Origin: Schmidtea polychroa
Taxonomy: Eukaryota
Length of the DNA stretch: 64,000 nt
NCBI GenBank assembly: GCA_044892525.1
Contig: CM097885.1
Span: 27,406,001-27,470,000 of the forward strand
Reading direction: 5' to 3'
The first letter of the stretch is position 1; the number at the start of each line of letters is the position of its first letter. Made by a program: the position numbers and the translations under genes. Positions 32,613-59,388 of this stretch are shown one piece after another. The notes below the pieces were generated by a model that made no database searches, was not told where the DNA came from, and saw nothing but the letters and a program-made list of their open reading frames with translations.

Positions 32613-33315
32613 TGATAATAATATTTATGATTTCATACCTCTCATATTTTATACCTCTGATAATAATAATATTACAATAAATTATATATGTATTCCGATT
32701 ATTATCCCATTTTATAATTATTATGCGATAAAAACGGCCTAAGAATTATTATTAAAGACATTAAATATAAATGCAATTAACTATTAATATTTAAATCTAT
32801 TAATATATTTGAAATATATTTATAATTTATCAGGTAAATTATACCCCGCTACTGCATGTCATCAAATGATCATACAAATATATGCCATAAAAATATGAAA
32901 AACTACTACGGTCATAGATTCTATGGCATCAACTACTTTATATGTCCAATATGCGAGACTTCCCAAAGCATTAAATATATAGAGTTTTATAATATTCACT
33001 GTGAGGAGTTAAAATTAAAATACTAAATTAAATTAGTTCATGATTAAAATTTGTAAAATTTTAATTGAAACTTAAATTATTTTAAGATATTAAAATTGAA
33101 ATGATAATTGAAATTTTAAAATAAAATAATCTTTAATAAAATTGAAATTCAAGTATGAATGCGATGGTATGTTGATATTTGGTTGAAATTAAAATTTAGA
33201 AAATGTCCCAAGAATATTTGTTTATATAATCAGATTTAATGAAATATAATTTTGGATTTAATAGTCTTAGTAATTTATTTTGATGACAGAAGAATTAAAT
33301 GTTATAGCTTCTAAC

Positions 33316-34401
33316 ATGGCGACCATTCCAACGGATCTGCTTATTGGAAGATTACTTCCAGAAAAATTCCACAGAGGAGATGACCTCGAATTATTTATCA
33401 AAGAATGTCAGAGGTTCTTTGAAATAACGAAGACACCAGTGAAGACCCAAATGGTACTAGTTATTACACTTCTGGACAGGACTTTGATTGAAGAATATGA
33501 AACCGCAGAAGGTAAAACCGTTGAACAGAAATTAAGAGCAGCTTTTCATCGACCAACGTCATTGATTGATGACTTAAGAGAAGCCTTGAACTACGAGCAA
33601 GGTAACGAATCAGCGGAAATATTTATAGAGAAAATATAAAAAATGACTAAAAAATTGGCCTCACACACTTGGAATGAGGAAGAAATTCAGAAATGTTTGT
33701 TGACACATTGTGTAAAAGATAAAGAAGTCAGGAAAGAAATCGAAATGGAAGATCTCAAAACGGCGGAACAAATTAAAGAAACTATAAAGAAGATAGAAAA
33801 AGTTAACAAGGTTATTGAACAAGTAAACACGGTGAGATCAATACGACCTACAACTGGGGGAAGAACTTATAGAGATGTAGTACAAGTTGGAGACACGAAG
33901 AGAAAAATCAACGAATGGAAACCAGAGACAAGAATTAAAGTGATAGAATGCTGGACGTGTCAAAAACCGGGACACAGTAGCAGAGAATGTAATATAAAAA
34001 GAAGATTTCAATGTTATGCATGTGGTGTTGAAGGTCACATACGAAGAGAATGCCCAACAATCAAATGTCATAGATGCAATGCACGAGGACACAAAGAAAG
34101 AGAGTGCTACACAAATATGGAAAGACGAAATCAAGGAAGAGATCGAGACCAAAGGAAGATGTCAGGAGGAAGAATTCAAAGAAATACCTATCAACAAAGG
34201 GAAGATATGTATCAATCAAGGAACGTACATCAAAGACAATGGGGAAACCAACAATATAACAGAAAAGATATTGCAGCTATCGAGTCTGATGATGAGATGA
34301 TGAATACAAAACAGTCAAGCCAGCCAGACGAGTATAACAGGGAGAATGACCCAAACGAGCACGCTCCGTCAGACGGGACATTGATCGGAGCAATTTACTA
34401 A
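33316..34401 (+). pseudogene. gag: Gag with three CCHC zinc knuckles (stop at 33637-33639)
   Basis: CWTCQKPGHSSREC, CYACGVEGHIRREC, CHRCNARGHKEREC; ORFs 33280 and 33643 are in the same frame. Confidence 0.9.
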
Positions 34402-34424
34402 GTAATATTGATTTCAACCAAAGA

Positions 34425-37400: not shown

Positions 37401-37691
37401 AATAAAGAAATAAATAGAGAAGATATGGAAAAGAGAATAGAGGATAAAACACTAAAACCAAAAATAAGCAAAACAGTGAGAGATTTTGAAATGGAAGATT
37501 TGGTTTTGATCAAACAAGAAATTCGAAATAAAGACGATGCAAGGTGGGAAGGGCCGTACAAAGTGATAAAGAAAATACATGAACGGAGCTACTTACTTAA
37601 AGATCAAAATGGGAAGATGGTAGTCAGAAATGTTGAGAAGATCAAACATTTTAAAAAAGGGGGATGTGAGGAGTTAAAATTAAAATACTAA
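34425..37691 (+). pseudogene. pol: Pol (PR-RT-RH-IN), frameshifted near 34960 and disrupted near 37385
   Basis: LLDTGA; YLDD; DTDAS RNase H; H..GA..C..C and DDE integrase; WEGPY. Confidence 0.95.
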
Positions 37692-37986
37692 ATTAAATTA
37701 GTTCATGATTAAAATTTGTAAAATTTTAATTGAAACTTAAATTATTTTAAGATATTAAAATTGAAATGATAATTGAAATTTTAAAATAAAATAATCTTTA
37801 ATAAAATTGAAATTCAAGTATGAATGCGATGGTATGTTGATATTTGGTTGAAATTAAAATTTAGAAAATGTCCCAAGAATATTTGTTTATATAATCAGAT
37901 TTAATGAAATATAATTTTGGATTTAATAGTCTTAGTAATTTATTTTGATGACAGAAGAATTAAATGTTATAGCTTCTAACATTCAC

Positions 37987-40900
37987 AAATCACATTTAAA
38001 TCGGTTCTCTTTAAATAAAAAGAAATTGTTTATTAAAATACAACAATCAACACATAATACCACAAAACATATAAATACAAAACCTATAAATAATAATTAT
38101 AATACAAAACATGTAAATAATAATGTAAATAATACTAATCTAAATACGAATCTAAATACTTAAATAAATAATATTCTAAATAATAATAAACAGCCTGCTG
38201 TTAGTTTTGGGTCTGGTGTTCCCTCTAAAATTGTTAAAATTAATACAACTGGTGATTCATTATATAATCAAATAGGTGGTTCGATCGATATTGACGATGA
38301 ACCTGAAATTGAGATAGATTTTAAAGGGTCTAGAAAGAATTTACGATTTAATATGGAAAAAGATAACTTGGTACAAGTTTTCATTACAAATAAGATGACA
38401 AATAAATTAATTACCGAAATAAACGGTATGAGCACAGTTAAAATACAATTCACCGTTTTAATCCAATTCGAAAAAGATGGGGAAATTAGAGATAATTTTT
38501 TCTCTAATAATGCAGAGATTTTTTCAGATAATTTTCTAGTAGAGAGTATCACTAAGTTAAATGAAAAAATAGAAAAATTCACATATTTGGGTAGCGGATG
38601 GCGAGTGGTTAAAATCAAAGAGATAGATTTTATATTAACAAAATTAACCCATATGAATAGGTTAGCTGGACATGGTTATATCCCCACCCCAGCGGCTTTA
38701 AATTCTAAAAAAGCAATAGTAAACGTCAAAAACACTGACGATATGTGCTTTATATATAGTATTTTAGCCCTTTTAAAACGTAATGTAGTACATATAAATA
38801 GAAATAGAGTTAGTTCCTATGAAAATTATCTTGACGAGTTAAATTTTGACCCCATTTCTGATTGTCCAATGAAATTATGTGATATCCCTAAATTTGAAAG
38901 GAAAAATAGTGATTTAAATTTATCAATAAATGTTTTAATTTATAAAAAGAACCCAGCTAAGCCTTCTGAAAATGTAATTGACGATAATTATATTCCACAT
39001 CATCCTCAATTATATATTATTCACCGATCTAAGGTTATAGGTGGTGAACCCATATACTTACTTTTATTGGAAGACGGTGATAATTTCCATTATACCGCAG
39101 TTTTTAACTTACAAAAATTAATGAACTCACACCCAAACAGTGAATGCAGTGTTAAAATTAGAGTGAACTGGTGTCTTCATTGTCTCAATGGTTTTCGACA
39201 TGAAAAAGCATTTAACGCACATGTTGCACTATGCAGTAAGAACCAGATAGGTACTACTTTGTACACGCTCCCTAAAGATAAAAATTTAATTTTTAAAGAT
39301 TACTCCAAGACAATCATCCCGCCATTCGTGATATATGTCGATTTTGAGGCAATCTTACCTGAAGACATCACCCACCACCAAAAACATATGCCAATAACAG
39401 CAGGCATGTTATTAATTAATAATTATAATAATACCAGATTTTATTATGAGTTTGTTGGTGATGATTGTGTGTTGTCTTTCTTGCGTAAGGTAGAGGAAAT
39501 TGCTGTCACAATTGTCCTGCCATATTACGAAATTAATGGGAAAAAGCCCATGCAAACCTTGTCTTTCACTGAAGAACGTGTCTTTCGAGAATCCAGAACC
39601 TGTTATCTATGTAAAAAAATTCATTAAAGATAGAGTTAGGGACCATTGCCACTTCTCAGGCAAGTATCTTGGTGCTGCTTGTAGGAAATGTAATGTTTCT
39701 CGGCGAATTCAGAGACAGTTACCAGTTGTCTTTCATAATTTGAGGGGTTATGATCTCCATCATATTTTGAAGTATGGTTTGAATAATTTTCCTTTTTGGG
39801 AATTAAATATTATTCCGACTACTACCGAGAAATTCATCTCCCTCATCGCGAATATTAACAAATTGCCTGTTCGTTTTATTGACAGCATGCAGTTTGTTAA
39901 TTCATCTTTAGCAAAAGCGGTTAAGACTCTTTCCGATCTGCCTTTAACTTCTTCTGTTTTTGATGATGCAATTGTTCGAGCCAAAGGTATCTTTCCTTAT
40001 GACTTTGCTACATCGCTTGAGGTTCTGGAATCGACTCTTGAACTACCTCCTATCTGGGATTCTGTGTCTAATGATGAGTATGCATTAGCCCAAGTTATTT
40101 GGACTCAGCAAAATTGCAACAACATGTTAGATTACATATTAACTTACCTCAAATTAGATGTATTTCTCCTCGCAGACTATTTTACACCATTCCCTGCAAA
40201 GGCCATTGCTTACAATGGTCTTGAGCCTCTTAATTTCTATGGCATTCCCGGTATGTCATGGGCCTCAGCGCTTATGACATTAACGGAACCCATTGAACTT
40301 CTGCAGGACATGGAAATGTTTAATTTCTATGAAGGAGGGATACGGGGTGGGTTAACATTTGTTAACAAACATTATGTTGCTAGTTCTGAAGACACAGAAC
40401 TCTTGTACATAGATATTAACAACTTGTATGGATGGGCCTTAAGCCAAAATCTGCCTTATGCTGACTTTGAATGGGTGTATGATGATCTTGATTCTGTCTT
40501 GAATGAATGTATGAATGAGGATATTGAAAATCTTCCATATGGGTATACTATGGAAGTGGATATTGATATCCCTCAGTGTTTGCATGATTTTATGAATGAT
40601 TTTCCGATTGCTCCGGAAAAGATGTACCCGCCAGATTCGAAAGTTGAGAAGCTGATGCTCACGCATTGGCCGAAGAAGAACCATGTTCTTCATTGGCGAC
40701 TTCTCAAGTTGTATATAGAATTGGGGGCTATTATTAAAAATGTACATAGGGCAATTAAATTTAAGCATGCACCCATTTTTAAATCGTACATAGACAAAAA
40801 CACTAATTTACGAGCCAATTCTACATGTGAATTATATAGGGATTTATATAAATTATTTAATAATAGTCTGTATGGGAAATCGGTGGAGAATCTGAAAAAG

Positions 40901-41749
40901 CGGATGAATTTGAGGCTATGCAATTCAGCTGAAAAGATGATTGTATATGCATCAAAACCTACTTTCAGAAAATCTATCAAAATTGCTGATGATCTGATTG
41001 CGGCTCATCTGGATAAAGAATATATATGTTTAGACAGACCTAGCTATATTGGTCAAACAGTGTTAAATTTGTCTAAACTGAGGATGTACCAGTTACAGTA
41101 TATAGAATTGTCTAAATATCGTTTAGAGTTTAACTGTGATACAAGTATCGTTGCCGGTGACACTGACTCCTTTTTCTTAGAGATAAAGCACTGTAAGCTT
41201 GACACTCTTTTGCCGGCAATGATTCGTGATAATCTTTTAGATACTAGCAATTATGATCCTGCTCATCCTTTGTATTCAAAGAGTTTGGATTCTGTGATAG
41301 GAAAATTTAAGGACGAAAGTAAAGGGCTTGGTTATAAGGAGTGGGTTTTCTTAAGACCCAAGTGTTATAGTTTGTTAGGGGATAAGGCAACACTTAGGGC
41401 TAAGTGAATTCAGCTTGGTAATACTGAGATAGGGCACCAGTCTTATTTAGACTGCTACAACAACAGCGTAGTATATACGGTGCCACAAACTAGAATAGGG
41501 ACGCGTAACCACCAGCTTCTTACGTTTAAAAATACCAAGATTGCATTGTCAAACAACGATGACAAACGATTATGGGTGGGGAAAAATTCAAGTCTCGCAT
41601 TTGGACATTATTTAGGAATAGATGCCTTAGATGTTGATCAAGTAATTTCAGAAATTCGTCCACTATTCGGAGGTCGAAGTCCAGATTTCAATGATGCCAA
41701 TGATGACAATGATATTAATATGACGTATTATTATCGAATTGATCTGTGA
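37987..41749 (+). pseudogene. pPolB: Protein-primed DNA polymerase B, right-arm copy (5' part continues at ~32856-32999 across gypsy 1)
   Basis: Mirror of the left-arm copy with the same frameshift (~39620) and nonsense (41405), plus a private stop at 38161. Confidence 0.95.
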
Positions 41750-41824
41750 TATAATATATCTTTTAATCTTTTAATGTCTTAATTTATTATCATTTTTACG
41801 TAAACTAATGATAATTTTGTAAAT

Positions 41825-42188
<364 letters not shown>

Positions 42189-43457
42189 TTTTGGATGATG
42201 AGGGTAGGCCCATCACTACATTTACCTTAAATAAGTATTATAAGACTGGGCCCAAAAAATATAGAATCAATGTGTGCGCTGAAGAGCGTAGGTAAATTAA
42301 ATAGCCCAATTCTTCAACAATCCAATGCATCAAATAGCAACCAACAATTCAATCCCTCAATTACAATCCAATGCATCAAATAGCAACCAACAATTCAATC
42401 CCTCAATTAGATTCATCAAATGATGACAATAACTTCTGTGTGATGAATTAATATTGACCTATTCATTTTTCATTCTTTATATAAAATTTTAGTGTATCTT
42501 ATTGACATTATTCTATGTGCCCTATTTATTTCATTGTGTGACATTCTATGTATTTCTAACTTTATTTATTTCTATTTCTATTTTTATTTGTGATTGTATT
42601 GGTAAACACAAAAAATAAATATATATATAGAGTAATTAATATTTATAGATAATAATAATAATTATAATAATAATAATAATAATGGCAATAGTAATAGTAA
42701 TGTTAATGATGATAATAGTAGTGATAATTAATTAATTAATATGAAATAAAAATATTTGGAGTTTAATCAGTCTAACGAGACTGAAAGAATTTAAAAGAGT
42801 GAAATTTAATTCTGACGAGACTGAATAAAATTTAATATAATTAATTTATATGAACCAAAATTCACTATATAAACGACTCACAAAGTCAGTGCAGTCGCCC
42901 AAAAATCTAGCGAAGAATTTTTCTTTATTCAAGGGTTAATCCTGCGGATAAATTAATAACTGAATCAGTACAGAAAGATTCACAGAATATAAAAACTTAC
43001 TAAGACATACACGCACACATAACAATTAACAGATACATAATTCTTACACGCATTTCAGTGAAAGAAATCGATCAATAATTGTCAATCTATTTAGAATCGA
43101 AATTTGTAGAAATTTGGTAATTTTTGATTTCAATAAACATTTATATACACTTATTTGCTTTGTTATATATATAAGAACCAGTAGGTTGAGTGTTCCCGAA
43201 TATCGAGACCTCAACATTTGGTGCCGCGAACCGGGACTTTAAAATCAATTATTGTTATTCACAATTTGGGGGATAGGAATTGAGATCAGAGGGTTATAGT
43301 ATTTTATATTGGGAAAATATATTTATAAAAAGAATATCATTGATCAATTTTAAATAAATAAATTCAGTTTTGAAAAATTATTAAATAATTTAAAAAGATA
43401 AAATAGATAATCAACCCGAAATAGTTTACAATCTCAGAAATAGAATAGTCTATAGGA

Positions 43458-44587
43458 TGAATAATAATAATAATAATTACATAAAAATTTTACCAGTAGA
43501 ACCATATAGAGGAGAGCCTGAAAAGTTCGACGATTTTTTCACTGAGATCGCTTAGTATGCAGAAGCTTGTGGTTGGACACCTGATGAGTTTAAAATGAGA
43601 ATCCCACTATATTTAAAAGGTTATGCGTTACAGGCATACAATAACTTAGAGTGTAAAGGAAATAATTTTGATCAACTCGTAAGATATTTGAGAGCGGAAA
43701 TAGTAATCGATAGCGATTTGCAAAAGATTAATGTTCAAAAATTTAGAAATAGATATCAAGGAACTAGAGAGTCAGTAGGGGAATATGTTTATACAATTAC
43801 TGAGTTAGCGAAAAAGGCATTTGGCGCAGGCGAGCACACAGCAAAATTAATTGAGGATCAATTCTGGAATGGTATACAAAAATATTTATATAAAGCATTA
43901 ATTATGGTAGAATATGGTAATTTAAATGAATTAGTTCATAAAGCTAAGCGTATAGAAGCAATACAACGAGATAGATTTAGTTCACACGTAGATGCATTAG
44001 AGATCCAAAAACCCATAGAGGTAAAATCTGAGTTGGGTAAGTCTGATGACAACATCCCCTGGGAGGAGATGAAACAACTATATTTAAACTTTGTAAAAAA
44101 TAGACGAAGGGCAAGCCCGAGTCCGGATAGAAGTCAATCGCCTGAAAACAGGAGGAGGTTTGATAATGTGAGAAATAGAAATTTTGAGAATAGAAACAAT
44201 AGAAATACTTTTGATAGAGACAATCGTTGTGAATATAATAGAAATAATTATACGAGAGATAATCGAGTCGATTTTAGTAGAAATAATTTGAGAAATAATA
44301 AATATGATAGAAGTAATAGATATGATAATAGAGATAATACAAATGATTTGAGACGTAGACAGACAAGTCCATATAGACAGAATTCATATAGAGAAAGGCG
44401 AGGAAGCCCTTATAATAATGATGGTAGAGATAAAGTAAATTTTAATGGACAAATCAAATGTTATAATTGCCAAAAATATGGCCACTTAGCTAAAGTATGC
44501 AATAATGCACGAAACGAATCACCTAATAGAGTGAGATTCAAAAATGAGCCTGAGATAAAACAGATTAATAGTGCTGAGTTGATATAA
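43458..44587 (+). pseudogene. gag: Gag (capsid, RD/N-rich region, one CCHC knuckle)
   Basis: PLYLKGYALQAY, RYQGTRESVGEY, CYNCQKYGHLAKVC; in-frame stops at 43552 and 44585. Confidence 0.9.
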
Positions 44588-46126
44588 GCTAATGATGAAA
44601 TAAACAGTTTGAGAGAGGAATTAAAAGAATTTAAAACTCAATATGGGAGACTTATTGAGAGAAAGTTAGAAATGTCATTAAACGAGTTTCAGTGTTTTAC
44701 CAATGATGTAGATATAGATAATGATGAGTTTCGTGAAGCAAGAGAAGCGGATGAGAAATTTCTTGCAGAAGCAAATAGATGTAAAGAATTAAAGGAGGAA
44801 TTGAAAGAGACATTAGAAAAATGGCCTTACGATGATAATGAGACATTGCGTATAATAAATAGAGTTCAAGTCGAAGGAATTGACTTAGAGTATTTGAGAA
44901 ATTTGATACCACTAATGGTAAAGAGACAAAATATGACAAGAGTATTTGAATTAGAAATAGAATTGAAAGAAATGATAAAATGTTATGGTGAATTTGTGAG
45001 AAAAAATCAGAAATTGCATGAGTCATTGAATATAACTATTGAGGCAAAGGACCTTTCGAGAATACTTATGCGTAGTACAGGGGTATATGTTTGCACAAAA
45101 GTGAATAAAGTGAAACAAATGGCCAGAGCTAATTGGCCCGAGAAATTGGGAGATAATGATAAAGTGAAAATGTATTTTAACGGTGTAGAAATGATGAATA
45201 ACGAGTATATAATTGACTATGGGGTAAACGTCATCGATAACAATATAATTTCCGCCGTAATAGAAAGGCAAGAAAGTAAGGAAATTGATACACCAACTCC
45301 ATCAGTAGAATTGAGTATAAACGACGAAAACGACTATGATAAATTATTTAGATTGTGGGATGCTTCTTCAGGAGGAGCAATGAAGTCACCAACAGCTAGC
45401 GATGAAATCTTTAAACCTATCGATACTAAATACGATAATTTACATGAGACAATAGAAAAAATTGCGAAGCAGGTAAATATGCAGGATGCAGAGACAATGA
45501 GACGAGGTAGAGGAAGACCTCGAAAATCGGAAATAGCCGAAAAGTCAGATGACAGAAAGGCAGCAGAGCGTTTAAGAGATATCGCAAATAATATGAGACA
45601 GGAAGTCCCAAAAAATCAGGATAATGACAAAGATATAAAGATGATAACAGAGTTAGTTAAAGCAATGAATATGAGACGATTTCCGGAAGCGAAACCATCA
45701 GCGTTAATAGAGAATATAGTTAAAAAGATTAAATTAATGGAAAAAGAGATTAGAGAATTGAGTGCAGAGGAAGCAAATGAAGAGACAGTGCTAAAGATAT
45801 TATTTACAACAGGAGTCAATCGAGATAAAGTGATTACGGCAATGGCATATTTAATAGCAAGATACAAAAAACTCTTGCGATTGAACCCGAAGAATCAAAT
45901 AGAAAATATCGCAAAAATGATATATGATAAGCTAAAGATAGACGCTATGCCATGGATAAAATTAAAGGGAGGATGGAAAATATTGTATGATGAGAATCTA
46001 ATCGAAGGCGCTCAAGAAAGCGTAGAAGATAATATTAATGTAGAAATAGACGATACGGAGGAAACAGTAAAAAATCTAGTAAATAAAACAACTATGAAGC
46101 CAAGTCAAAAAGAAAGGAAGTCGACA

Positions 46127-47990
46127 ATGTCAATAGTAATTATAGTAATAACGTTATTGTTAGATCTGATAAAAGGAAATAATGCGATCGTAGCATATGA
46201 CTGTCAGAATCCCAAGTGGGGACAGAAATATTCATTATTAGATGTAGAAAATTGCCCAGAAGCTAATCCAACAAAGCTAATTGTTGCAGATCCAAAGATT
46301 TTTCACATATATCAAGAGTCTGACTTCATTCACACTGAGGCAGGAGAATGTATCGTTAAATATTCAGAGGAAAGTTTTGTATGTAATAAAATAGCGAGAA
46401 CAATATTAACTCCAACATGGGCACCAGAAGCGATAATAATAGCACCAATCGAATGTGAAAATGCATTTAAGACAAAAAAGATAAAAACGCCGGATGGATT
46501 TGAATTAGATGCTCAGGTAGGAGCACGAGTAAGGCAATTAGTAAATGTCGTTGGATGGTCATCAACAGGAGAATATTGTGAAGGAGGAACGTATAAAATA
46601 TGGGGGCATGTAGCAGACAATATTGTAGTAAGACGACAATATTACATTGAATTAAGGAAATTCAAGGCGTCATTTGATAGTTCATCAAAGAAAATGATGA
46701 CACATAAGTTCTGTACATTAGATGAGACAAGCTGTGATACAGGTGAGTCAATGATCCTATACAAAGTAAATAAATACGAATGCCATCTAACTAAACTAAA
46801 GACATTGAAATTCAGAACAATACGAGGTAAACAGTTCACGGATGTAGAAGCCAAGAACATTAGAGACCAAAAACGACGAGCAACGATAGTTCAAGAGAGA
46901 GATACACCAACGATATATATGTCAGATTCTGAAACAGAAGCGATGAGATTTGTGGGGAAAGGTGAAAGTATCAAATGCGGAAAAGCAGTTATACAAACAA
47001 ATTATGAAGGAATTTATATCAGCGGAAGTGAAATTAAAGAGGCAAAATCAAAAATAGATAAATTCGATGTCAAGCTAGCATCATATTTTAATAATAAAAT
47101 CGACTACTTCTATCATCATCAGTTAGTACAATTGGATAAAGTATACCAAGCAACTATTGCAAACGATTGTAAACTTAATAGAGAAATATTAAGAACAAAG
47201 ATGGCGGTCGTAGTCACAAACCCAGATTTAATGGCACCAATTCTATTCGCAGAGAAAGGGACATTTGCAAGAGTTGTCGGTGAAGTAATACAAACATTTC
47301 AGTGTAAACCGGTTAGCGTATCTTTAGCAACGAATAATAAATGCACAAACGAATAACCAGTAGTGTATAAAGGAGAAACTGTGTATCTCCAACCAATAAC
47401 AAGGATATTAACAGATAAAGACTATGTTCCGAGAAAAATTGATAAATGTACAAATCTATTAGATCCGTTATACAAAATAAATGATGATATGTGGATTACA
47501 ATGTCAGATAGAAAGGAAGCGACTAAACCACAAAAACTAGAATTAACTGAACTTGAGAAAAAGTTAGAATTTCAGGAAGTCAACGAAATGGATAACAATG
47601 GGATGTATTCGAGAGAGGCGATAGAGAGCGCCAGAAAACATATGCTATTTCCTCATGAAAAAGAAAAAGTTCTTTCTATCATGGTAAACAAAATCATCGA
47701 GAATAGTTATGGAGGGAATTACAACTTTGATGTATTATTATCAAAAGAGCACTTCAAGAAAGTTGTATATAGAGTATTATACAGCATATGGGGATATTTT
47801 GCGATTCTCGGTAATACATTTTCCACTATATTGGGTATATATTATACAGTAGCACTACTGAAAATGATTTGTTCATCATTAGTTTCGTTAAGACAACTGA
47901 GACAAGTTTTTGGTAATTCATATAAAATGATAGCATGTTTATGTCCATTCATAGCCAAATATTTGATCACTGCGAGGCATGATAAGGAAA
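46127..47990 (+). pseudogene. env: Chuvirus-G/herpes-gB-like (class III) envelope glycoprotein embedded between gag and pol
   Basis: Internal signal MSIVIIVITLLL..NNA, then IVAYDC..SLLDVENC, a Cys-rich ectodomain, GEVIQTFQCKPV, CTNE*PVVYKG..YLQPITRIL and TM WGYFAILGNTFSTILGIYYTVALLKMI. One in-frame stop at 47354. Confidence 0.8.
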
Positions 47991-48239
47991 TCAAACGGAT
48001 GAAAAGTCGAAGGGAAGAGGGTGAAATAATGATCACCAACGAGAAAGATGACGAGGCAAACAAATCAGAAAATATTGATCAACCACATATTGGGTTATAT
48101 GATAATCAAAGAGAACAATTGACAGAATTAAGAAATAATAATGAAATTAGAATCCCAGGTGAAAATGGTAATTGTCATTGTGTTCCAAGGAAAACTTATG
48201 GATGTTACGGGTTAGAACTTGACGATTTATTAGAAGGGT

Positions 48240-51200
48240 TAAATGAAGCAAGACCTAAACTAAAAATAGTGATAAATAATACGATAATAAAGGCATTATG
48301 TGACACAGGAGCAGCAGCTTCTATGATTCGTGAAGATCAATTAACCGAAAATCAAAAGAAAAATATTGTGAGTACAAGAGATAGAGTAATTTCTTTATCA
48401 TCACACTACATACCATTAAAAGGCGATATCGAATTAACAGTCCACTTTTCAGATCAAGTGGTTGAACATGTCTTCAAGGTAGTAGCAGAATGTAAATGCG
48501 TATGTGTTCTTGGAATGGACATACTCAAAAAGTTAAAAAACTGTGTAATCGATTTGACGGATAGTACAGTTAAACGGAAAGCAATATATCAAGACGCAAG
48601 ATTTACTGAGGTAATTGCATTAGAGACATTCGAACTAGAATATCAAAGTGATCATATAATTCCAGTAAAAGTTAATGTTAAAAGTGAGGACACTTTCATT
48701 TTCGAGCCTGAAACGGCAATATCACGAAATTATAATGTAATGTTAACAGACGAGTGTGTAGTTCCAAATAATGGGATAATTCCAATAAGAATCGCGAATT
48801 ACGAAAGGAATAAAGTAAAAATTCATAAAGGTACAAAATTGGGAAAGTTGTTCAAAGGTGAATTAGAGCAAACATTTGAAGTATGTGAGATGTCGATGAC
48901 GAGTGATGTCAGTGAAGGAATGGTCGAACAGAGTAGAGCGAATAATATTAAATTTTATGATAAAATCAAAATAAATAATAATTATCTAAACGAAACACAA
49001 CAACTACAACTACAAATTTTACTTGACGAATATAGTGATGTTTTTGCAAAACACGAATTTGATTTAGGAGATACTGATATTATCAAACATGTAATTGATA
49101 CGGGGGATGCGAGACCAATAAAACAGAGACCTTATAGTGTACCATATAAACTGAGGGAAGAGATAAAACGACAAATTAAAGAATTAAAAGAGGCAGGCGT
49201 AATAAAACAAAGTTTTTCACAATGGGCATCACCTAGTGTACCAGTTAAAAAGAAAGACGGGGAAATTCGAATGTGCATTGATTATCGTAAATTAAACGAT
49301 GTAACAGTAAAAGATTCTTACCCATTCGCGAAAGCACAAGAGCAATATGATAAACTTAGGGATACTAAGTATTTCACAGTAATAGATGCAAATAAAGGTT
49401 ACATGCAAATTCAAATGGAAGAGGGGGATGCGGAAAAAACTGCTTTTGTGATTGAGGATGGTTTATATGAATATACGAGACTACCGTTTGGGTTAACTAA
49501 TGCGCCAGCAAGATTTCAACGTTTAATGAACACAGTATTAGTAGATGTACAACATTGCGCAGTATATATGGATGATATATTAATTTCATCAAAAACATTT
49601 GAGGAACATCTAAAAGATATAGCTAACGTACTAGAAAGATTAAGAAAAGCAAAAATCAAAATAAAACCCACTAAATGTAAATGGGCAGAACCTTCAGCAT
49701 TATTCTTAGGACATATAGTTAGAGTAGATGGTATAATACCTAACCCCGATAAAATTGAAGTAGTAAAAAAATTCCCAGTTCCAAAAACATTACAACAAGT
49801 ACAGGGATTTTTAGGTCTCACAGGATATTATCGTAAATTCATACAAGATTATGCAAAAATAGCAGCACCACTAATTGAATTAACAAAAGGAGTCAAAACT
49901 AAGGGGGAGAGTAAAGGAGTGTTAATAGTACAGGACATTAACGATAAAATTAACAAGCCACAAAAGAAATGGAAAGATGAACATCAAAAAGCTTTTGATC
50001 AACTAAAAGAAAAATTAATAACAGCACCGATACTAAGATACCCAGACTTTAAAAAACAGTTTATTGTCATGACAGACGCCAGCGGGAAGGCCGTAGGGGC
50101 AGTCTTAGGACAAGAAGAGGAAAAGAGTAAAGATTATGTAATAGCTTATGCAAGCAAAACATTAAAAGGAGCGCAGATTAGGTACTCAACAATTGAGAAA
50201 GAATGTTATGCTATAGTTTTTGCATTAAAACAATTTAAGCCATACATATATGGAACTGAAGTAGTAATTAGAACAGATCATAAGCCATTAGAAGGGTTAT
50301 GGAAACATAAAGATACATCCAGCAGACTGTTAAAGTGGGCTATGAAAATACAAGATATGCACATAAAGATTGTATACAAACCAGGCAGAATAAACAGGAA
50401 TGCAGATGCATTATCACGAATTTCAGAGTTGGGAGCATTAGAGGTTTTTGCATTAGTAACTGAAAAACCAATAGAAATATATGAGGAACAAATGAAAGAC
50501 ATAGAACTTTTCAAGATAACAGAGGAAATAAAAAAGGGAACTAACCAAAAGTATAAAATCTATAAGAAGTTAATTGTTATTGAGGATTTTAGCGGTAAAC
50601 AATTAATAGTAGTACCACAAAGATTAAGACAAATTCTTCTATTACAATATCACGATGGTGCTCTAGGAGGTCATTTATCAAGCAGAAAAACAGCGAGCAG
50701 ATTGATGCACAAATATTATTGGGACGAATTGAAAAAAGATGTTAAGAGATGGTGTAATGCATGCACAATATGCGCAACTAGAAAAAATACAGGAACAAAG
50801 ACTAAAGCACCTTTACATCCAATCCCAGCTACAACATCACCAATGGAACTGTGCGCAATGGATTTTTTATGTAAACTACCCACAACAATTAATGGGAATA
50901 AGCACATACTAGTTTTTAGCGATTATTTTACCAAATGGGCAGAGGCATTTCCTACTAAAGATGAAACAGCAGAAACAGTAGCCAAACTACTTGTAGAAAA
51001 AATAATCTTTAAAATCGGCACACCGAGGAAATTATTAACAGATAAAGGAAAAAACTTCATGAGTGAAACTATAAAAAGAGTAGCTAATATATTTAACATG
51101 CATAAAATCAACACAACAGCATACCACCCTCAAACTGATGGTTTAGTAGAGAGATTTAATGGGACATTGCTAAGTAGATTAGCCGTGTTTGTGGGAAAAA

Positions 51201-51757
51201 ACCAAAATGATTGGGATGAATACGTTAATCGATGCACATACATTCATAATATCACACCAAATGAGACAACGGGATATTCACCATATTTTTTAATGTTCCT
51301 AAGAGAGCCTACAACACCGATTGATACAATTTTTGAACCTCGAGTATCACAATATTTAGATGCGCCAGATTATGTAACATTAATGCAAGAGAGATTACAA
51401 GATGTATACAAAGTTGCAAATTTAAAAGTTAAATTTAGACAAGAACAGTATAAGGCAGATTACGATAAAAATAGCAAACCTCATAATTTTAAAGTGGGAG
51501 ATAAGGTTAGACTTATGTCTCCACAAGTAGGTAAAGGTAAAACAACTAAATTAGCAAGACCATTTAAAGGACCATACGAGGTAGTAAAAGTAGTACATGA
51601 AAACCTGCATTTACAAAAACATAAAAATGAGGATCCGATAATAGTACATGTTAATAGATGCAGATTAGCAGAAACAGAATTAGTAGAAAAACCACCTCAC
51701 AAATATGGATTACGATCACAAAAAGCACTGATGTTGGCTTTTTTAACAATTTTTTAA
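48240..51757 (+). CDS. pol: Pol (PR-RT-RH-IN) in frame with the upstream glycoprotein
   Basis: ALCDTGA; RMCIDYRKLN, YMDD; MTDAS; H..GGH..C..C; DDE core VERFN; FKGPY. Confidence 0.97.
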
Positions 51758-52590
51758 CAATTTAACATTTTTAACAATTATAGGGTTGTGTAAATCAACT
51801 GAAGTAGAAAACGAGAACATACACTCAGTAGAATACATGGCTGAAGATATTTTAATCAACATTTCACCGTATAAGATTAAAGTATATATTATATACTATA
51901 TAACTTAAATAAATCACCAATAAGAGACTTGTATCTGGAAACTAGGGACAATACACCCAAACTTATGAAAAAAATTGAAAATAGATCGACTAATGAATTT
52001 GAAAGAGGAGATAATGTTGAGTTCAGAAGTCTACAACCCAACACTAATTACACACTTTGTGCACAATGGAATACATTAGTTGACACATCACAGATAAGGT
52101 GCAAAAAAATAAAAACTATTAAAATAAACAGACTTAGAATAAAAAAACCAATAGGGAAAAAGTAGCAACAACCAGAAAAACAACTACTGTAAATTCAATA
52201 TCCACACATCCTATATCACAGACGATAACGAATAGGAAAACGACATTTAAAGCGGTTAGACAAATGTATAAAAAATTAACAATGAAAAATCTAAGACAGT
52301 CTGATAGGAAACTGATAAAATTACCTACAGGAAAACCGATAATTATAAATAACTGGAACGAATTACAAGTCTTTAAAAAGAAAGCAAGTAAACCACAATG
52401 GCCTTTTTATGTAATAGCCACAAGTGTAATATCATTCGCGATTTTAGCAATTGTCACTAGTGTACAAGTTTATAAAAAGTACAAGTGGAAAAGGCAGCGG
52501 TATCGGCACCGACTGGTCAAAGAAGCACCAGGGCATTTTCACTTGGACAAATATATCCCTGGACAATATACTCTGTCCACACTGGTATAA
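51730..52590 (+). pseudogene. Decayed type-I membrane protein with FN3-like segment downstream of integrase
   Basis: Signal-like MLAFLTI(I)GLCKS broken by a local duplication; VEFRSLQPNTNYTLC (FN3 L.P.T.Y motif); TM WPFYVIATSVISFAILAIVTSV followed by basic KKYKWKR. Confidence 0.5.
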
Positions 52591-52924
52591 TAACTTAAAA
52601 AATTTTAATTATGTAAATTGGTCGATGATATATGATAAAAGTATATATATTAATATTTATATAACTGCGTATAAGGTTAAACCTCAAATGCGCAACAAGC
52701 ATAAATATTCATTGTTTGTTTTTAGAATAATAATAAGAAGCCTATTCAGCCAATCAAATCAATTCAATCAAATCAATCCTCCTATAAATCAGAATCAAAT
52801 CAATCAATCGCCTCAAATTAGTCAGATCAATCTTCAAGTAAAGCAAAGTCAAATCAGACGATCAAACCAACCCCATCAAATAAATAATCACCCATACCAA
52901 ATCAATCTTCATACAATCGAATCA

Positions 52925-54823
52925 ATGTACCCACATACGTCAGTCCACATGCATTCTCAAAGAACAAAACCTCAGCGAAATCCTGAAACTCAGAAAATAA
53001 AGCAATATGTGCCGATGTTACAGAAACACTACCACGGTTTCTATAAAAATCTGCAAAATAAGATCAGCACAGATGGCACTCCCATTACTATTAGAAGCTT
53101 CCCCAACCAAGTATGCATTCCCAACGATATGAAAGTCGAGATAGAAGAAAGGGAATTGCATCTCATCAAATTTAACGAAGCAAGAAGAGTCAAATTAAGA
53201 GAATTAATCGGGACATATGACAGATTCCCCAATGCAGAGGAAGCTGCAAAAACTGGAAAGAAAGTACCCCATAGAATTTTATTTCACATTACAAAAACAG
53301 AGGTAGCAATATGCCAACATAGAATACCAATAATCACCACGAGCAATTGCACCATAACAATAAAAACTATAAAAAATGATCGGAGTGTCCCAAACGACTA
53401 CAATGAATTGATAGTCCAAATGAACAGCCTACCCTGTGTCATAGCGATTGAAGTATTATACATACCCACTATCCCAAATCCATTTCAGCAGTTGGAACTA
53501 ATCAAGTCAAACATCTATATGCATGGAGATTTCATCAGAAAAAAGATGTCATTTACCCACAGAGAATTATCCACGGCGGAGAGACATCATCTAATAATGT
53601 TTGTAGATGCAAAATTAGTATGCGACATCAACAATAATTTAAGGCCAGTGGAGGTCAGCATACGGAATTTTAAAGGTGTAACAATATTTGATGAGAAAAT
53701 TACACCGAGAACGAAAATCCTACATTATTACCCAGAGAAGACAAAGGCCAACAAAGAAAATATCGTCGGAAATAAAGACGAATACGAAGCACTAGTCGAA
53801 ATCCAACAATTACTTTGCGGAAAAATAGTCGTAGGATTCGACATCATCGGGAAACTCAAAGCTCTCACATTAGATCTGTATAATGTTATGGGAGTTAGAG
53901 AAATGTCGGAAGATGTATTTATGTGCTCGTATGTCAAAAACGTTGCGCCACACAAGATAAAATTGTCCAACCTGGCATACCAGGTAATCAGGCACCATAA
54001 AAAATGGGACAAGGATAAGCGCATAAATAGAATGTTGCGGGAACCAGAACCATTTCCAGCATGGCAAACCACAATGATCGTCAAAGTGATATACACAATC
54101 GTAGAAAATCAATGGGAAGAGGTTGTTAAATGGGATTCAGAAGCCTTCAGTGGACAACAAATGAAAGATCAATTATATCCCATCAAAGAAAGTGGTATGG
54201 AGGATATGTCTGATGATGATGACGACATCTATATAGAACCATCGCAGATCGAAATTAAATTTAACAAAGATGGGACACGAAGAACTTTCGAAGATGAATT
54301 AATAGAAAGTGATGACGACGTAATATTCATCGAAGAAAAGAGAGTACCAAAATTCGATACAACAGTCAAACTGGAACCACAGGAATCAAAATTCCATCCA
54401 GGAAAACTAATGGAATGCGATCTCGACTCTGATGAGGAATACTTCTCAATCGACGAGCAAGAAGAGAAAAATATGGAAGTAGACGAATTGGGACCAGAAC
54501 CGGATATCACAATCGAAGAGGAACCCAATTTCATTATACCCAAGGAGAAGGAGCAAATTACAGAGAAGGAATTAACCCGACATTTTGGAAGGCGTATAAA
54601 TCTCGCATTGGCAAAAGGCTTCAACAAAGCGAGAATGCTGATAAAAGATAATGAAATCGAGCTAGTACGTAGCATAAGAGATAATGCGGACATTATCTTA
54701 ACGGCCCAGGGAGGAATGTTAGATGATGAGGGTAGGCCCATCACTACATTTACCCTAAATAAGTATTATAAGACTGGGCCCAAAAAATATAGAATCAATG
54801 TGTGCGCTGAAGAGCGTAGGTAA
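52925..54823 (+). CDS. Accessory ORF with a REX4/ISG20-like DEDD exonuclease domain and acidic tail; ends inside the 3' LTR
   Basis: MFVDAKLV..VEVSIRNFKGVTIFDEKITP..ILHY..EIQQLLCGKIVVGFDI..LKAL follows the REX4/ISG20 pattern; several catalytic acids appear substituted. Start codon uncertain. Confidence 0.65.
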   Translation: MYPHTSVHMHSQRTKPQRNPETQKIKQYVPMLQKHYHGFYKNLQNKISTDGTPITIRSFPNQVCIPNDMKVEIEERELHLIKFNEARRVKLRELIGTYDRFPNAEEAAKTGKKVPHRILFHITKTEVAICQHRIPIITTSNCTITIKTIKNDRSVPNDYNELIVQMNSLPCVIAIEVLYIPTIPNPFQQLELIKSNIYMHGDFIRKKMSFTHRELSTAERHHLIMFVDAKLVCDINNNLRPVEVSIRNFKGVTIFDEKITPRTKILHYYPEKTKANKENIVGNKDEYEALVEIQQLLCGKIVVGFDIIGKLKALTLDLYNVMGVREMSEDVFMCSYVKNVAPHKIKLSNLAYQVIRHHKKWDKDKRINRMLREPEPFPAWQTTMIVKVIYTIVENQWEEVVKWDSEAFSGQQMKDQLYPIKESGMEDMSDDDDDIYIEPSQIEIKFNKDGTRRTFEDELIESDDDVIFIEEKRVPKFDTTVKLEPQESKFHPGKLMECDLDSDEEYFSIDEQEEKNMEVDELGPEPDITIEEEPNFIIPKEKEQITEKELTRHFGRRINLALAKGFNKARMLIKDNEIELVRSIRDNADIILTAQGGMLDDEGRPITTFTLNKYYKTGPKKYRINVCAEERR

Positions 54824-56565
54824 ATTAAATAGCCCAATTCTTCAACAATCCAATGCATCAAATAGCAACCAACAATTCAATCCCTCAATTAGATTCATCA
54901 AATGATGACAATAACTTCTGTGTGATGAATTAATATGGACCTATTCATTTTTCATTCTGTATATAAAATTTTAGTGTATCTTATTGACATTATTCTATGT
55001 GCCCTATTTATTTCATTGTGTGACATTCTATGTATTTCTAACTTTATTTATTTCTATTTCTATTTTTATTTGTGATTGTATTGGTAAACACAAAAAATAA
55101 ATATATATATAAAGGGTAATTAATATTTATAGATAATAATAATAATTATTATAACAATAATAATAATGGCAATAGTAATAGTAATGTTAATGATGATAAT
55201 AGTAGTGATAATTAATTAATTAATATGAAATAAAAATATTTGGAATTTAATCAATCTAACGAGACTGAAAGAATTTAAAAGAGTGAAATTTAATTCTGAC
55301 GAGACTGAATAAAATTTAATATAATTAATTTATATGAACCAAAATTCACTATATAAACGACTCACAAAGTCAGTGCAGTCGCCCAAAAATCTAGCGAAGA
55401 ATTTTTCTTTATTCAAGGGTTAATCCTGCGGATAAATTAATAACTGAATCAGTACAGAAAGATTCACAGAATATAAAAACTTACTAAGACATACACGCAC
55501 ACATAACAATTAACAGATACATAATTCTTACACGCATTTCAGTGAAAGAAATCGATCAATAATTGTCAATCTATTTAGAATCGAAATTTGTAGAAATTTG
55601 GTAATTTTTGATTTCAATAAACATTTATATACACTTATTTGCTTTGTTATATATATAAGAACCAGTAGGTTGAGTGTTCCCGAATATCGAGACCTCAACA
55701 ATAGTAATAGTAATAATAGTAATATTAATAAAAATAGTAATCATAATAATAAAATGACTTTGTATTTACATAACCTTTGTTAAATTATTTTATTGTTTAA
55801 ATAGATGTATGTTTTATTGATTTGTTTAATAATACCCTTGTGAGTTGTTGAGCGTGAGCAGTACCCTTTTGAGCATTACCCATAGGGGGATAAAATATTT
55901 TGTCGGATAAACTCGGAGTATATATAATAATAACCCCTGTGTTTAAAAGACCTTTATTTTCCAATAATAATATCTCTTGTCGGGAACTCTCGAATTTCAA
56001 ATAAAAAAAAAGAACTTTATATTAAAAAATTTGACCTTGGAAAGAATTTTAAAAATTTCCCCTAGGGGGGGGGGGGGGTGGGGTATGTGATCCAGCGGAC
56101 CCCTATCCATCTACTTATTACCCTTTAATTTTTTCATTTTCTTTTGGATTATTGGATGTAAGAGTGATTAAAGTCGTACAGATTATCTGCGCCTCTGATC
56201 AGTCCTACATTCAACCATGTTATAAAATATACTACAGCAACATGCAGACACGTATTATCTTTATTATAAATCTTTTTTTGTTCGGTCATCGGATGTCGTC
56301 CTCTTCATGGTTCTGCCATGGAGTTGTGTCGATATAACCCCTCCGCTATGGCTCCAACTATTTATTATAGGTCGACAGCGTTATGTTTCGAATCAACACA
56401 ACAATAGGGCTTGTCGTAGCGGTCACAGTGGGGCCTGGTAAGCAAGCATTCTTCCCGACTTTGAGTGCAGTACAATTAAAATCAACAGTAAAAATTTTGT
56501 ATATTACTTTACACTAGGACTTTAATTGAGTAGACCTCAGACCTAAATTGATCACAGCTCTACAA

Positions 56566-59388
56566 TAGGGTGGAGTGAAAATGACCGAAAAAAAATTTTT
56601 TGACTTAGTAGACTTTGGATAGTTATAAAAACTTGCTATGAGGTCCAATGAAGTACTCTGTAAAGAAAAACAATAATTTAAATAATGTCTTGAGGTTCCA
56701 CAACCAACTTTAAAATGTAACCATTGATAAGAAAACGATAATGTATTTGCTATTATTGACATATTATTGAAGTCATTGATGGCATTTAAATAATATTTTC
56801 ATTACTTTTAATAGCAAAATATTTGCCACCCATACACTATGGATTTTAAATGCCTCTGGTTTTCCTTTTTAGAGTTGCAATGGCTGTAACCAGAAAGAAA
56901 GTGTCTTGTGTCATCTTTGGTGGTCCATCCGAGATGCCCGACAATCAACTACCGACTTATGCAGATGTTATGAAATTCTACAACCTGACAAAGCAGAGAC
57001 TGAAATGCGAATTGAACAATAAAGATCCTTCACATCGCAACGTGGCAGAAACAGTGTCAATGAAAGTAGAACAAATATGGGACAAAGCTTCCATACCACA
57101 TGTAAGCCACCGCCGTGTTCATGAAATTTTGAACGTGTACCACAAGACGTTCATGAAATTGCTGAAGCCGTATAAATCTAGGAAGGACTCAGAACCATAC
57201 AGAGAGAAAATATCGCAGTTTAAAGATGAATCGATTAAACTCTTTGACATTTGCTCCTGCAAGTGCTCTTGTATGTCTCAGTGTCACTGTGAGAAGTCAA
57301 GAAAGATACCCACAATTGAACGTGACTTTCTAGAAGATCAGCGGGGTTCACGCTGTATGATCATAGCTGGAGTTGATGAGTTTGAATCCAGTATATTACA
57401 AAAGCGGTATATCCGTAAAGAGTCGACACAGAGGCAGATGTGTACCAAATCTGCCATTGATGACATCGGTGATAAACAGTCGGATGTCTGTGACGAGATT
57501 TCTGGAATGGAAGAGGAAATGGATACCGGCGATGATGACTCTGATGACGATTGTATAAGCCAAATTAAACAACAACGAAAATTGAATGACAAGCAGATGA
57601 GAGTTAAGCTACCGTCGTTGGCTTTAGCGTGTGATCGACATGGCGTATCCGACAGGGCGGCAGCAGGAATCGCCAGTGCTGTTCTTCAAGATGTTTGAAT
57701 AATCCACGAACATGATGTTTCTAAAGTGATTGACAGAAGTAAAGTGCGTCGAGAACGTTGTAATAAGCGTGGCGCATTATGTGCCGAAGTCAGTAACACA
57801 ATCACTGGGTTATATTTTGACGGCAGAAAAGACAATACAATGACCCAAATTAAAGAATGCGATGGTAAATTTCATCGGAAAATAATAACTGAAGAACATA
57901 TATCGATTATAGCCGAACCAGGAGCTACATATTTCGGTCACATTACACCAACTGCAGGGTCAAGCAAAGTTATCACGGCTGAGTTGATTGCATATTTGAA
58001 TAAAAGAAATGTTGACACGAGTGGCATAAAAGCAATAGGTTGTGATGGGACAGCCACTAATACGGGCATTCGAGGAGGCATCATTCGATTACTTGAAGTG
58101 ACGTTACACAGACCGCTACAGTGGTTCGTATGTCAGTTGCATGCAAACGAATTACCGTTAAGACATTTGTTTCAGTATCTCGATGGACCTACCAATGGTC
58201 CAAAAGGATTTTCTGGTCCCATTGGAAAGTCATTGTTGAATTGTGAGAAGCTTCCCATCGTTGACTACATGCCGATAAACTGTGTTCTACCGTCAAGTGC
58301 AAATTCCGACGATTTAAGTACAGATCAGAAATACCTGTTCGATTTGTGTACTGCTGTAAGTGTTGGTATTTGTCCTGTCGACCATTCACTTCGCAATCCT
58401 GGTCTTATCAACCATTCGAGATGGTTAACCACGGCTAATCGCATACTACGTCTGTATGTTGCCACAAGAAGCCCGTCGGATGAACTAAAGACGCTTGCTA
58501 CCTTCATCGTAACAGTTTATGCACCTGCATGGTTTGAAATAAAGAATACCCCTTCGTGTAAAGACGGCGCTCGACATGTCCACAGTACGATACTGAAATC
58601 ACGCTACCTCACAGACGAGCTGAAGAAAGTTGTTGACCCGGTAATTCAACGCAACGCATTCTTTAGTCATCCAGAAAATCTGTTGCTAGCGATGCTTACC
58701 GATGAAAGATCAGATATACGCGAGTTAGCTCTGCGACGCATACTGAAATCCAGAAAGCAGAAACGTACGACTTCAGTTAGATCTTTCTGCGTGTCAGTAA
58801 TCAACTTTGAAGCTACTAGCTACATAGACATGATCGATTGGCAGAAAACTCCGATCACAGAGCCTCCAATCGTAGTGGACATTGACGAAGATACTTTGTT
58901 AACCATGATCCGGGAAGAAGAAACGCCAAGACTGGATTTCGCCCGCTATCCTTGTCACACCCAGGCAGTAGAGAGACATATCAAGCTAGTGACAGAAGCA
59001 TCCGAAATGGTGTGTGGTCCAGAAAAACGCGACGGATTCATTAGAGCACGCTTGGAATCGAGATTGAAAATGCCAAAACTGGACACCAAAGCCCAACATC
59101 ATTTGTAGTTATAAAAACATGTTAGACAGTTTGCATGTGGTTTCCCTTCACAGATATGGTTCTTATTACTTGTAATGTTATGTACAGACTGTTAAAAAGT
59201 TAAACCATAACATAAATATGTTACTTATAAAAAAATGTTTTTTTTAAAGATTATTGCTTTTTTATCGAAATATGCCTATACTTTAGGTCAATTGTGGAAC
59301 CTCAAGATATTACTAATTGCATGTGTTACCAAGTTTTTATAGCTATCCAAACAAGATATTAAGAAAAAAAAATTTTCACTCCACCCTA
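56566..59388 (+). mobile_element. hAT (hATm-type) DNA transposon
   Basis: TIR TAGGGTGGAGTGAAAA / TTTTCACTCCACCCTA; 8-bp TSD CTCTACAA at 56558-56565 and 59389-59396. Confidence 0.95.
56880..59108 (+). pseudogene. hATm transposase with a single nonsense codon (57696-57698)
   Basis: YFDGRKD, GCDGTATNTG, CQLHANELPLRHL, SRWLT, PCHTQAVER; both ORFs are in the same frame. Confidence 0.9.

What the first reader, a model, noticed from the sequence alone, without database searches (positions are those of the whole stretch)
43458..51757. Gypsy element with the envelope gene between gag and pol, all in one reading frame
Seen: ORFs 43595, 44609 and 47363 share one frame and are separated only by single stop codons. 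The glycoprotein (AYDC..SLLDVENC to the TM near 47800) runs across the 47354 stop and directly into the protease. Known: retroviruses and errantiviruses place env 3' of pol as a separate, usually spliced ORF; chuvirus/gB-type envs do occur in invertebrate retroelements. Inference: the ancestor made one ~2700-aa Gag-Env-Pol polyprotein threaded through the ER membrane, with Gag cytosolic, an internal signal at ~46127, a lumenal fusogen, a TM, and Pol cytosolic. That topology resembles alpha/flavivirus polyproteins and would couple Env and Pol output.
Basis: partly seen in the sequence, partly recalled or inferred. Interest (0 to 1): 0.92.

Follow-up and report, generated by a model that had tools for sequence, protein, structure and literature searches.

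The report
Planarian gag-env-pol retrovirus-like element, broken copy
This is a damaged copy of a known kind of flatworm retrovirus-like element that makes capsid, envelope and replication enzymes as one long protein; the only part that looks undescribed is a second small membrane protein fused behind the integrase.

Summary
Observation confirmed: gag, a class III-type env and pol share one frame (43457-51757) inside a 13.5-kb LTR element. The three stops are private damage: 17 of 17 sibling copies read sense there, no stop is shared by two copies, and pN/pS is 0.02-0.19 in every domain. The layout is published: Arkhipova and Yushenova 2019 describe in-frame gag...BCL2-env-protease in planarian Burro elements, and Chary and Hayashi 2026 list GAG-ENV-POL elements in flatworms, nematodes and bryozoans; one, Smed_errantivirus_3, has an Env about 82% identical by eye. 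It also missed that the family frame runs past integrase into a second signal, an Fn3-like domain and a membrane anchor (about 3,030 aa in all), a layout also seen in a second family here and in 5 of 6 database relatives with an integrase. I found that tail in no paper searched; the Fn3 call is only a lead. Topology, processing and infectivity are inferred. The scan's earlier notes held nothing on this.

The parts
42185..42188 (+). Left target-site duplication ATAG, at the end of an (AAT)n run
   Evidence: Same 4 bases at 55701-55704; low-complexity context weakens it
42189..43216 (+). 5' LTR
   Evidence: Self-BLAST pair with the 3' LTR; 10 substitutions in about 980 aligned bases plus indels of 46 and 2 nt
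43219..43235 (+). Primer-binding site, tRNA-Phe(GAA)
   Evidence: Pattern search found 4 genomic matches; the 2 fetched are tRNA-Phe genes by ARAGORN
43457..44500 (+). Gag: capsid-like region, Arg/Asn/Ser-rich linker, one CCHC knuckle (44453-44500); private stop at 43553
   Evidence: zf-CCHC E 2.3e-4; Retrotrans_gag only E 0.034; 30% identity, E 2.8e-17, to the capsid region of P0002
44501..45607 (+). Unassigned helical/charged spacer with an AT-hook-like GRGRPRK at 45500-45526 (motif name recalled); private stop at 44585
   Evidence: No Pfam match better than E 0.43; pN/pS 0.06-0.10
45608..46003 (+). Bcl-2-fold domain in frame before Env
   Evidence: Pfam Bcl-2 E 1.4e-5, below cut-off; element-only profile finds Bcl-xL/Bcl-2 in all 60 rows shown, best E 2.2e-6; hhalign 96.6% to host-genome Bcl-2-like sequences; model pLDDT 84.9, Foldseek top hits Bcl-xL TM about 0.66, E 1.1e-3
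46121..46177 (+). Internal signal sequence for Env (also the likely tail anchor of the Bcl-2-fold piece; inferred)
   Evidence: Hydropathy peak just before the AYDC motif; a hydrophobic peak shortly before xYDC in 6 of 7 database relatives
46193..47776 (+). Env ectodomain, mononegavirus/chuvirus/gB (class III) type; private stop at 47354
   Evidence: PF24664; 14 Cys in 8 of 8 ectodomains; about 82% identical by eye over 246 positions to Smed_errantivirus_3
47828..47884 (+). Env transmembrane anchor
   Evidence: Hydropathy 1.8; 11 K/R against 3 D/E in the 44 residues after it
48245..51130 (+). Pol: protease 48245-48538, RT 49244-49720, RNase H 49970-50356, integrase zinc finger and core 50612-51130
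   Evidence: Pfam; DTG, YMDD and RNase H/integrase acidic motifs located
51720..52590 (+). Post-integrase second membrane protein: signal, Fn3-like domain, Ser/Thr-rich stalk, anchor (52399-52470), short tail. Broken in this copy by frameshifts near 51740, 51880 and 52160
   Evidence: In 14 of 17 siblings the frame stays open from the integrase C-terminus to the end of the fetched DNA; break positions; atlas fn3 lead 0.87; PDB profile best E 0.063
52448..54823 (+). Separate accessory open frame with an ISG20-like (DEDDh-fold) region at 53528-54184, catalytic residues apparently degenerate
   Evidence: PDB ISG20 E 8e-5 and ISG20L2 E 6e-4; no Pfam match; frame of about 720-790 aa in most of 70 scored family matches
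54708..54716 (+). Polypurine tract
   Evidence: Purine run directly before the 3' LTR's TG
54717..55700 (+). 3' LTR (TG...CA), followed by ATAG

Best explanation
A post-insertion-damaged copy of a recently active planarian Ty3/gypsy family of the known GAG-ENV-POL, gB-type envelope kind: a compact relative of Burro. The family makes one polyprotein of about 3,030 aa (single frame: shown). Gag and a Bcl-2-fold domain are made in the cytosol; an internal signal sends the Env ectodomain into the ER lumen; the Env anchor returns the chain to the cytosol for protease, RT, RNase H and integrase; a second signal and anchor then put a small Fn3-like ectodomain in the lumen (topology inferred from hydropathy, charges and cysteines). 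Signal peptidase would cut on the lumenal side and the element's protease on the cytosolic side (inferred), leaving the Bcl-2-fold piece tail-anchored by the Env signal stump and Pol tethered to the Env tail until cut, which would deliver Pol to the budding membrane without a frameshift. Env most likely serves particle entry into neighbouring cells, the Bcl-2-fold piece most likely damps death of the producing cell, and the tail is most likely an attachment or fusion-partner protein (all three functions inferred, none shown).
For: 17 of 17 siblings sense at all three stops, 8 of 17 without any stop over 43457-51754, no stop shared by two copies (two pairs are near-duplicates). 11 of 150 listed genomic matches to the Bcl-2-fold domain lie in stop-free frames of 3,051-3,090 codons. 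pN/pS 0.05-0.09 for the Bcl-2-fold domain and 0.05-0.07 for Env, against 0.04-0.06 for RT. 7 of 7 database relatives have Env followed by protease in one protein. A second family in this genome with frames up to 3,334 codons has, in the one copy sampled, the same Bcl-2-fold domain (E 7e-13 in a two-sequence search), signal, xYDC, and post-integrase signal plus anchor. LTRs about 1% apart fit a handful of private nonsense and frameshift changes. Literature.
Against: No topology predictor, no RNA reads and no protein data: the runs laid were contigs of uncertain kind. A second, weaker hydrophobic stretch follows the Env anchor (1.58 over 15 residues); if it crossed the membrane the simple topology would fail. 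The Env fold was not modelled here. The Bcl-2-fold domain is below Pfam's cut-off, lacks the NWGR form of BH1 (reads NRDK) and found no relative as a single sequence. Equimolar Gag and Pol is unusual and leaves room for an unseen spliced RNA.
Confidence: 0.82

Rival explanations
1. The DNA has one frame, but the working proteins come from different RNAs: a spliced or subgenomic message joins gag to pol past env, or makes Gag or Env alone, so the threaded polyprotein is a minor product.
For: Retroviruses and insect errantiviruses use splicing for env (established knowledge). One frame gives a 1:1 Gag:Pol ratio. RNA evidence is absent.
Against: Every junction, including the spacer and the Env-protease linker, is kept in frame under purifying selection and in 7 of 7 distant relatives. 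No joint was listed in the two runs guessed to be RNA, which is weak because they are contigs.
Confidence: 0.1
2. The polyprotein is made as described, but Env and the tail do not serve entry into other cells: they organise assembly and budding at internal membranes or fuse internal vesicles, and the element spreads inside one cell lineage.
For: No N-glycosylation sequon in this Env ectodomain and no furin-type site in it; no particle or infection data seen in the papers read.
Against: All 14 cysteines and the whole fusion-protein profile are kept across families only about 39% identical; the eLife paper reports gB-type trimer models with fusion loops and says the furin site is not always conserved (passages).
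Confidence: 0.07
3. Env is a one-off insertion or an assembly chimera in an ordinary gag-pol element.
For: None found.
Against: 17 other copies match over at least 8.2 kb of the 8.4-kb query at 95-97%; the segment is under selection.
Confidence: 0.01

Closest known systems
GAG-ENV-POL errantiviruses with HSV/gB-type Env of Platyhelminthes, Nematoda and Bryozoa, especially Smed_errantivirus_3 (Chary and Hayashi 2026, PMC13524379; read: abstract, section 5 part 1 of 2, section 14, passages, supplement rows)
   Same: Gene order, Env class, multicopy state; Env domains I-II about 82% identical by eye to Smed_errantivirus_3 (43 differences in 246 positions), for which the paper lists an AlphaFold model.
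   Different: The main text has 0 hits for 'polyprotein', 'single ORF', 'Bcl', 'fibronectin' and 'exonuclease'; it lists no tRNA type or LTRs for the Smed elements, whereas this copy has 1-kb LTRs and a tRNA-Phe site. This copy is not intact.
Burro/GYPSM1 giant LTR retrotransposons of Dugesiidae (Arkhipova and Yushenova 2019, PMC6431247, section 7 read whole; Grohme et al. 2018 not held, known only through that section)
   Same: [quoted passage not shown]
   Different: 13.5 kb against over 30 kb; about 3,030 aa against 4,873-5,140 aa; one zinc knuckle; no MATH, BIR or ankyrin match. The section mentions no second membrane protein after integrase; its figure could not be seen.
Nematode endogenous retroviruses (Sacco et al. 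2022; not held; seen only as cited in PMC13524379)
   Same: env before pol (cited passage); a continuous gag-env-pro-pol ORF (recalled from the abstract, not checked).
   Different: Different phylum; the eLife paper says GAG-ENV-POL elements are not one clade. Whether they have a post-integrase membrane protein could not be checked.
Flavivirus/alphavirus-type membrane-threaded polyproteins (established knowledge; analogy only)
   Same: Alternating cytosolic and lumenal domains set by internal signals and anchors.
   Different: No homology claimed; here the fusogen is of class III type and the enzymes are a retroelement Pol.

Membership tests
Ty3/gypsy (Metaviridae) | Pol order protease-RT-RNase H-integrase | tested here: met
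   Pfam order
Ty3/gypsy (Metaviridae) | LTRs, primer-binding site, polypurine tract, short target duplication | tested here: met
   the 5' LTR begins TT, the 3' LTR TG
Ty3/gypsy (Metaviridae) | RT groups with named Ty3/gypsy lineages | tested here: inconclusive
   The tree had 8 rows, no named references and an unresolved base
GAG-ENV-POL gB-type errantivirus | env between gag and pol | tested here: met
GAG-ENV-POL gB-type errantivirus | Env of gB/class III type by sequence | tested here: met
   PF24664; close match by eye to a listed HSV/gB-type Env
GAG-ENV-POL gB-type errantivirus | Class III fold by structure prediction | not tested
   Both fold jobs went to the Bcl-2-like domain; the paper lists a model for the sister element
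GAG-ENV-POL gB-type errantivirus | Multicopy family with uninterrupted frames | tested here: met
   Family yes; this copy itself is broken
GAG-ENV-POL gB-type errantivirus | Infectious particles | not testable with these tools
   No data
Burro | BCL2-like motif, env and protease in one frame | tested here: met
   against section 7 of PMC6431247
Burro | Giant size (over 30 kb; ORF1 near 5,000 aa) | tested here: not met
   13.5 kb; frames of about 3,050 codons
Burro | MATH, BIR, ankyrin domains; two or three zinc knuckles | tested here: not met
   No such Pfam match; one knuckle
Burro | dUTPase-like region between protease and RT | tested here: inconclusive
   48569-49030 gave only DUF1131 at E 0.098; the paper's call needed HHpred
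Bcl-2 family | Helical-bundle fold with BH1-helix5-helix6-BH2 core | tested here: met
   Ungapped 70-residue match to Bcl-xL; (Foldseek E 1.1e-3, just short of 1e-3)
Bcl-2 family | Canonical NWGR in BH1 (motif recalled; seen in Bcl-xL) | tested here: not met
   NRDK, NGDK/R or TFAK in alignment A1
Bcl-2 family | BH3 binding or effect on apoptosis | not tested
   No complex job was sent; no assay possible
DEDDh exonuclease (ISG20/REXO type) | Sequence similarity to the fold | tested here: met
   ISG20 E 8e-5 over 77 residues
DEDDh exonuclease (ISG20/REXO type) | Complete D-E-D-D-H catalytic set | tested here: not met
   By eye against a recalled motif: first Asp kept, the Glu and second Asp positions read Lys here and in P0009 and P0010
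Fibronectin type III domain | Significant profile or structure match | tested here: inconclusive
   Pfam none or E 0.044; atlas 0.87, 10 of 10 best named hits one clan, a lead only; PDB profile best E 0.063; shared L-x-P-x-T-x-Y-like motif

The most novel reading that the evidence does not exclude
These elements encode a two-component entry apparatus in one polyprotein that crosses the membrane four times: a gB-type fusogen before Pol and a fast-diverging Fn3-based attachment or trigger protein after integrase, as herpesviruses and paramyxoviruses pair a fusogen with a binding protein. No such second envelope protein turned up for a retrotransposon in the searches made. Pol would be tethered at both ends to membrane proteins and the Bcl-2-fold piece anchored by the Env signal.
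Probability: 0.35. Interest if true: 0.65.

Novelty: new member of a known kind. Interest (0 to 1): 0.3.

Why it matters
The headline claim is correct but already published, so it does not matter as a discovery. What remains useful: a compact, recently active, high-copy family that keeps only the core of the Burro design (Bcl-2 fold plus Env in frame) makes the 2019 suggestion that these elements meddle with apoptosis testable in a tractable animal with a 132-residue domain; and the conserved post-integrase membrane protein may be an overlooked second envelope component of gB-type retroelements.

Tried and rejected
Single-sequence tests of the Bcl-2-like domain were blank or poor: PDB best Bcl-2 relative E 0.46 behind ribosomal S8 chance hits, atlas none, homolog search none, 1.84-billion library none, fold without alignment pLDDT 37.7. 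Sequencing runs: no RNA holder listed; three contig sets were laid and cannot show strand, level or splicing. RT and Env trees (88) were unresolved at the base and had no named references; they do not place the element. The element profile did not detect a Bcl-2-like domain in P0003-P0008 (best E 0.074). Tails of distant relatives do not align by BLAST (best E 0.058 to the sibling tail); the shared layout rests on hydropathy and a short motif. The LTR search gave mostly other copies than the coding search (12) because only the best candidates are scored. Paper searches: one search was swamped by an unrelated word; (Bcl-2 domain with retrotransposon terms) listed 15 papers with 0 occurrences of 'Bcl-2 domain'; (retrotransposon, fibronectin type III, integrase, envelope, gypsy) gave 1 unrelated paper; searches gave nothing beyond PMC6431247. 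Sacco 2022 and Grohme 2018 were not held. Earlier scan notes: none relevant. No complex prediction was sent. Rejected: programmed read-through at the three stops (not shared by any sibling); one-off insertion.
Full report
Observation. The three open frames are adjacent and share one frame. With X at the stops the frame runs 2,766 codons from 43457, interrupted at 43553, 44585 and 47354. Pfam gives zinc knuckle, a sub-threshold Bcl-2 match, the Monjiviricetes fusion protein split exactly at the third stop (profile 239-399, then 401-634), protease, RT, RNase H and integrase. The element spans 42189-55700, with 1-kb LTRs differing by 10 substitutions and two indels, a 4-base duplication ATAG, a polypurine tract and a tRNA-Phe primer site.

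The stops are private. The genome (781 Mb, four large contigs among 1,012) gave 17 other near-full-length copies at 95-97% identity among 18 scored candidates; all 17 were fetched. All read sense at the three positions, 8 have no stop over 43457-51754, and no stop is shared by two copies. Two pairs are near-identical, so about 15 are independent. Pairwise pN/pS is 0.02-0.19 for window against siblings and 0.02-0.27 among siblings over 13 regions; Env (0.07, 0.05) and the Bcl-2-fold domain (0.05, 0.09) are as constrained as RT (0.06, 0.04) (pairs are not independent). Of 150 listed matches to the Bcl-2-fold domain, 11 lie in stop-free frames of 3,051-3,090 codons.

The frame is longer than reported. 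Sixteen of 17 siblings differ from the window by a frame-shifting 17-19 nt near 51739. In 14 of 17 the frame stays open from the integrase C-terminus to the end of the fetched DNA; a hydrophobic stretch lies about 50 codons on in 14 of 17 and a strong one about 270 codons on in 12 of 17. The window copy is further broken near 51880 and 52160. Among 16 siblings the tail shows pN/pS 0.16 in the Fn3-like part, 0.66 in the stalk and 0.37 around the anchor. Seven database proteins of 2,627-3,761 aa have Env followed by protease in one chain; six include an integrase and five of these end in signal, ectodomain and anchor. One sampled copy of a second family in this genome does too. The Fn3 identity is a lead only: atlas score 0.87, PDB profile best E 0.063 with neogenin, anosmin, Dscam, NCAM2 and contactin among the top six, no Pfam match on the sibling tails.

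Bcl-2 fold. A profile of nine element-borne sequences (8 from this genome plus P0002) finds Bcl-xL and Bcl-2 in all 60 rows shown, best E 2.2e-6, over an ungapped 70 residues, and matches seven Bcl-2-like sequences from elsewhere in the genome at 96.6%. The model built from that alignment has pLDDT 84.9 and its listed Foldseek matches are all Bcl-xL or Bcl-2, TM about 0.66, best E 1.1e-3. Against it: every single-sequence test was blank or poor and BH1 is non-canonical. P0002 (own Pfam Bcl-2 E 0.0015, plus ankyrin repeats) and the second family have it at the same place; P0003-P0008 do not by this profile.

Mechanism. Shown: one frame, domain order, constraint. Inferred: cytosolic Gag and Bcl-2 fold, signal at 46121, lumenal Env with 14 cysteines in all 8 ectodomains compared, anchor at 47828 followed by a basic stretch, cytosolic Pol, second signal, lumenal Fn3-like domain, second anchor. 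Signal peptidase and the element's protease would release the parts. A weaker hydrophobic stretch after the Env anchor and the lack of RNA evidence are the main open points. A separate downstream frame of about 780 codons with an ISG20-like, apparently inactive exonuclease fold is kept across the family; its only database relatives were two unnamed proteins at 63-65% identity.

What is known. [quoted passage not shown] PMC13524379 (abstract, section 5 part 1, section 14, passages and supplement rows) reports GAG-ENV-POL elements with gB-type Env in Nematoda, Bryozoa and Platyhelminthes, six of them from Schmidtea mediterranea; Smed_errantivirus_3 differs from this Env at 43 of 246 positions counted by eye. 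The host is therefore most likely a Schmidtea-like planarian (inference). Sacco 2022 and Grohme 2018 could not be read; figures are not held, and the eLife supplements were searched only for host and element names, so any of these may already show the tail. That the tail is undescribed rests only. DEDD-type exonucleases as extra ORFs of LTR elements are recalled from Rodriguez 2017 (seen only as a reference).

Verdict. A real, correctly read feature; a broken copy of a new, compact member of a known kind, not a Burro proper (size and domain tests not met). Interest 0.3. Boldest open reading: a second envelope component after integrase, probability 0.35, interest 0.65 if true.

Noticed in passing
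window 14261-15122: A Bcl-2-like gene, apparently with one intron, 74-78% identical to multicopy loci (L032, L033, L035) that pass the Pfam Bcl-2 cut-off. It lies beside Polinton-type ORFs, so a second kind of mobile element here may carry its own Bcl-2 homolog.
   Followed up: partly
window 1201-13062: Minus-strand ORFs that look by eye like a Polinton/Maverick set (cysteine protease 1201-1653, RING finger 4845-5399, capsid-like 7429-8424 and 8725-9807, integrase 9919-10875, ATPase 11634-12119); names from recalled motifs, not scanned.
   Followed up: no
window 25039-29195 and 37990-42170: A 4.2-kb inverted duplication, 98.7% identical, each arm with DNA polymerase B-like ORFs (by eye); the right arm ends at the (AAT)n run into which the studied element inserted.
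   Followed up: no
window 33000-37982: An ordinary gag-pol gypsy element without env, with 318-bp LTRs that are 100% identical; used only as outgroup.
   Followed up: partly
window 56850-59108: Two in-frame ORFs split by one stop that look like a DNA transposase (by eye).
   Followed up: no
L034:253-627 and about 6 similar loci: An intronless multicopy Bcl-2-like frame of 152 codons at dispersed loci; context not fetched.
   Followed up: no
window 46193-47776: The Env ectodomain has no N-glycosylation sequon (3.1 expected); the 7 relatives have 1-3 each, all below expectation.
   Followed up: partly
P0003-P0006: These relatives carry extra aspartic-protease-like domains, one of them between integrase and the second signal.
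   Followed up: no
P0008: An env-pol polyprotein of this kind is filed as a hypothetical protein of a Flavobacteriaceae genome bin, probably animal DNA in the bin (inference).
   Followed up: no
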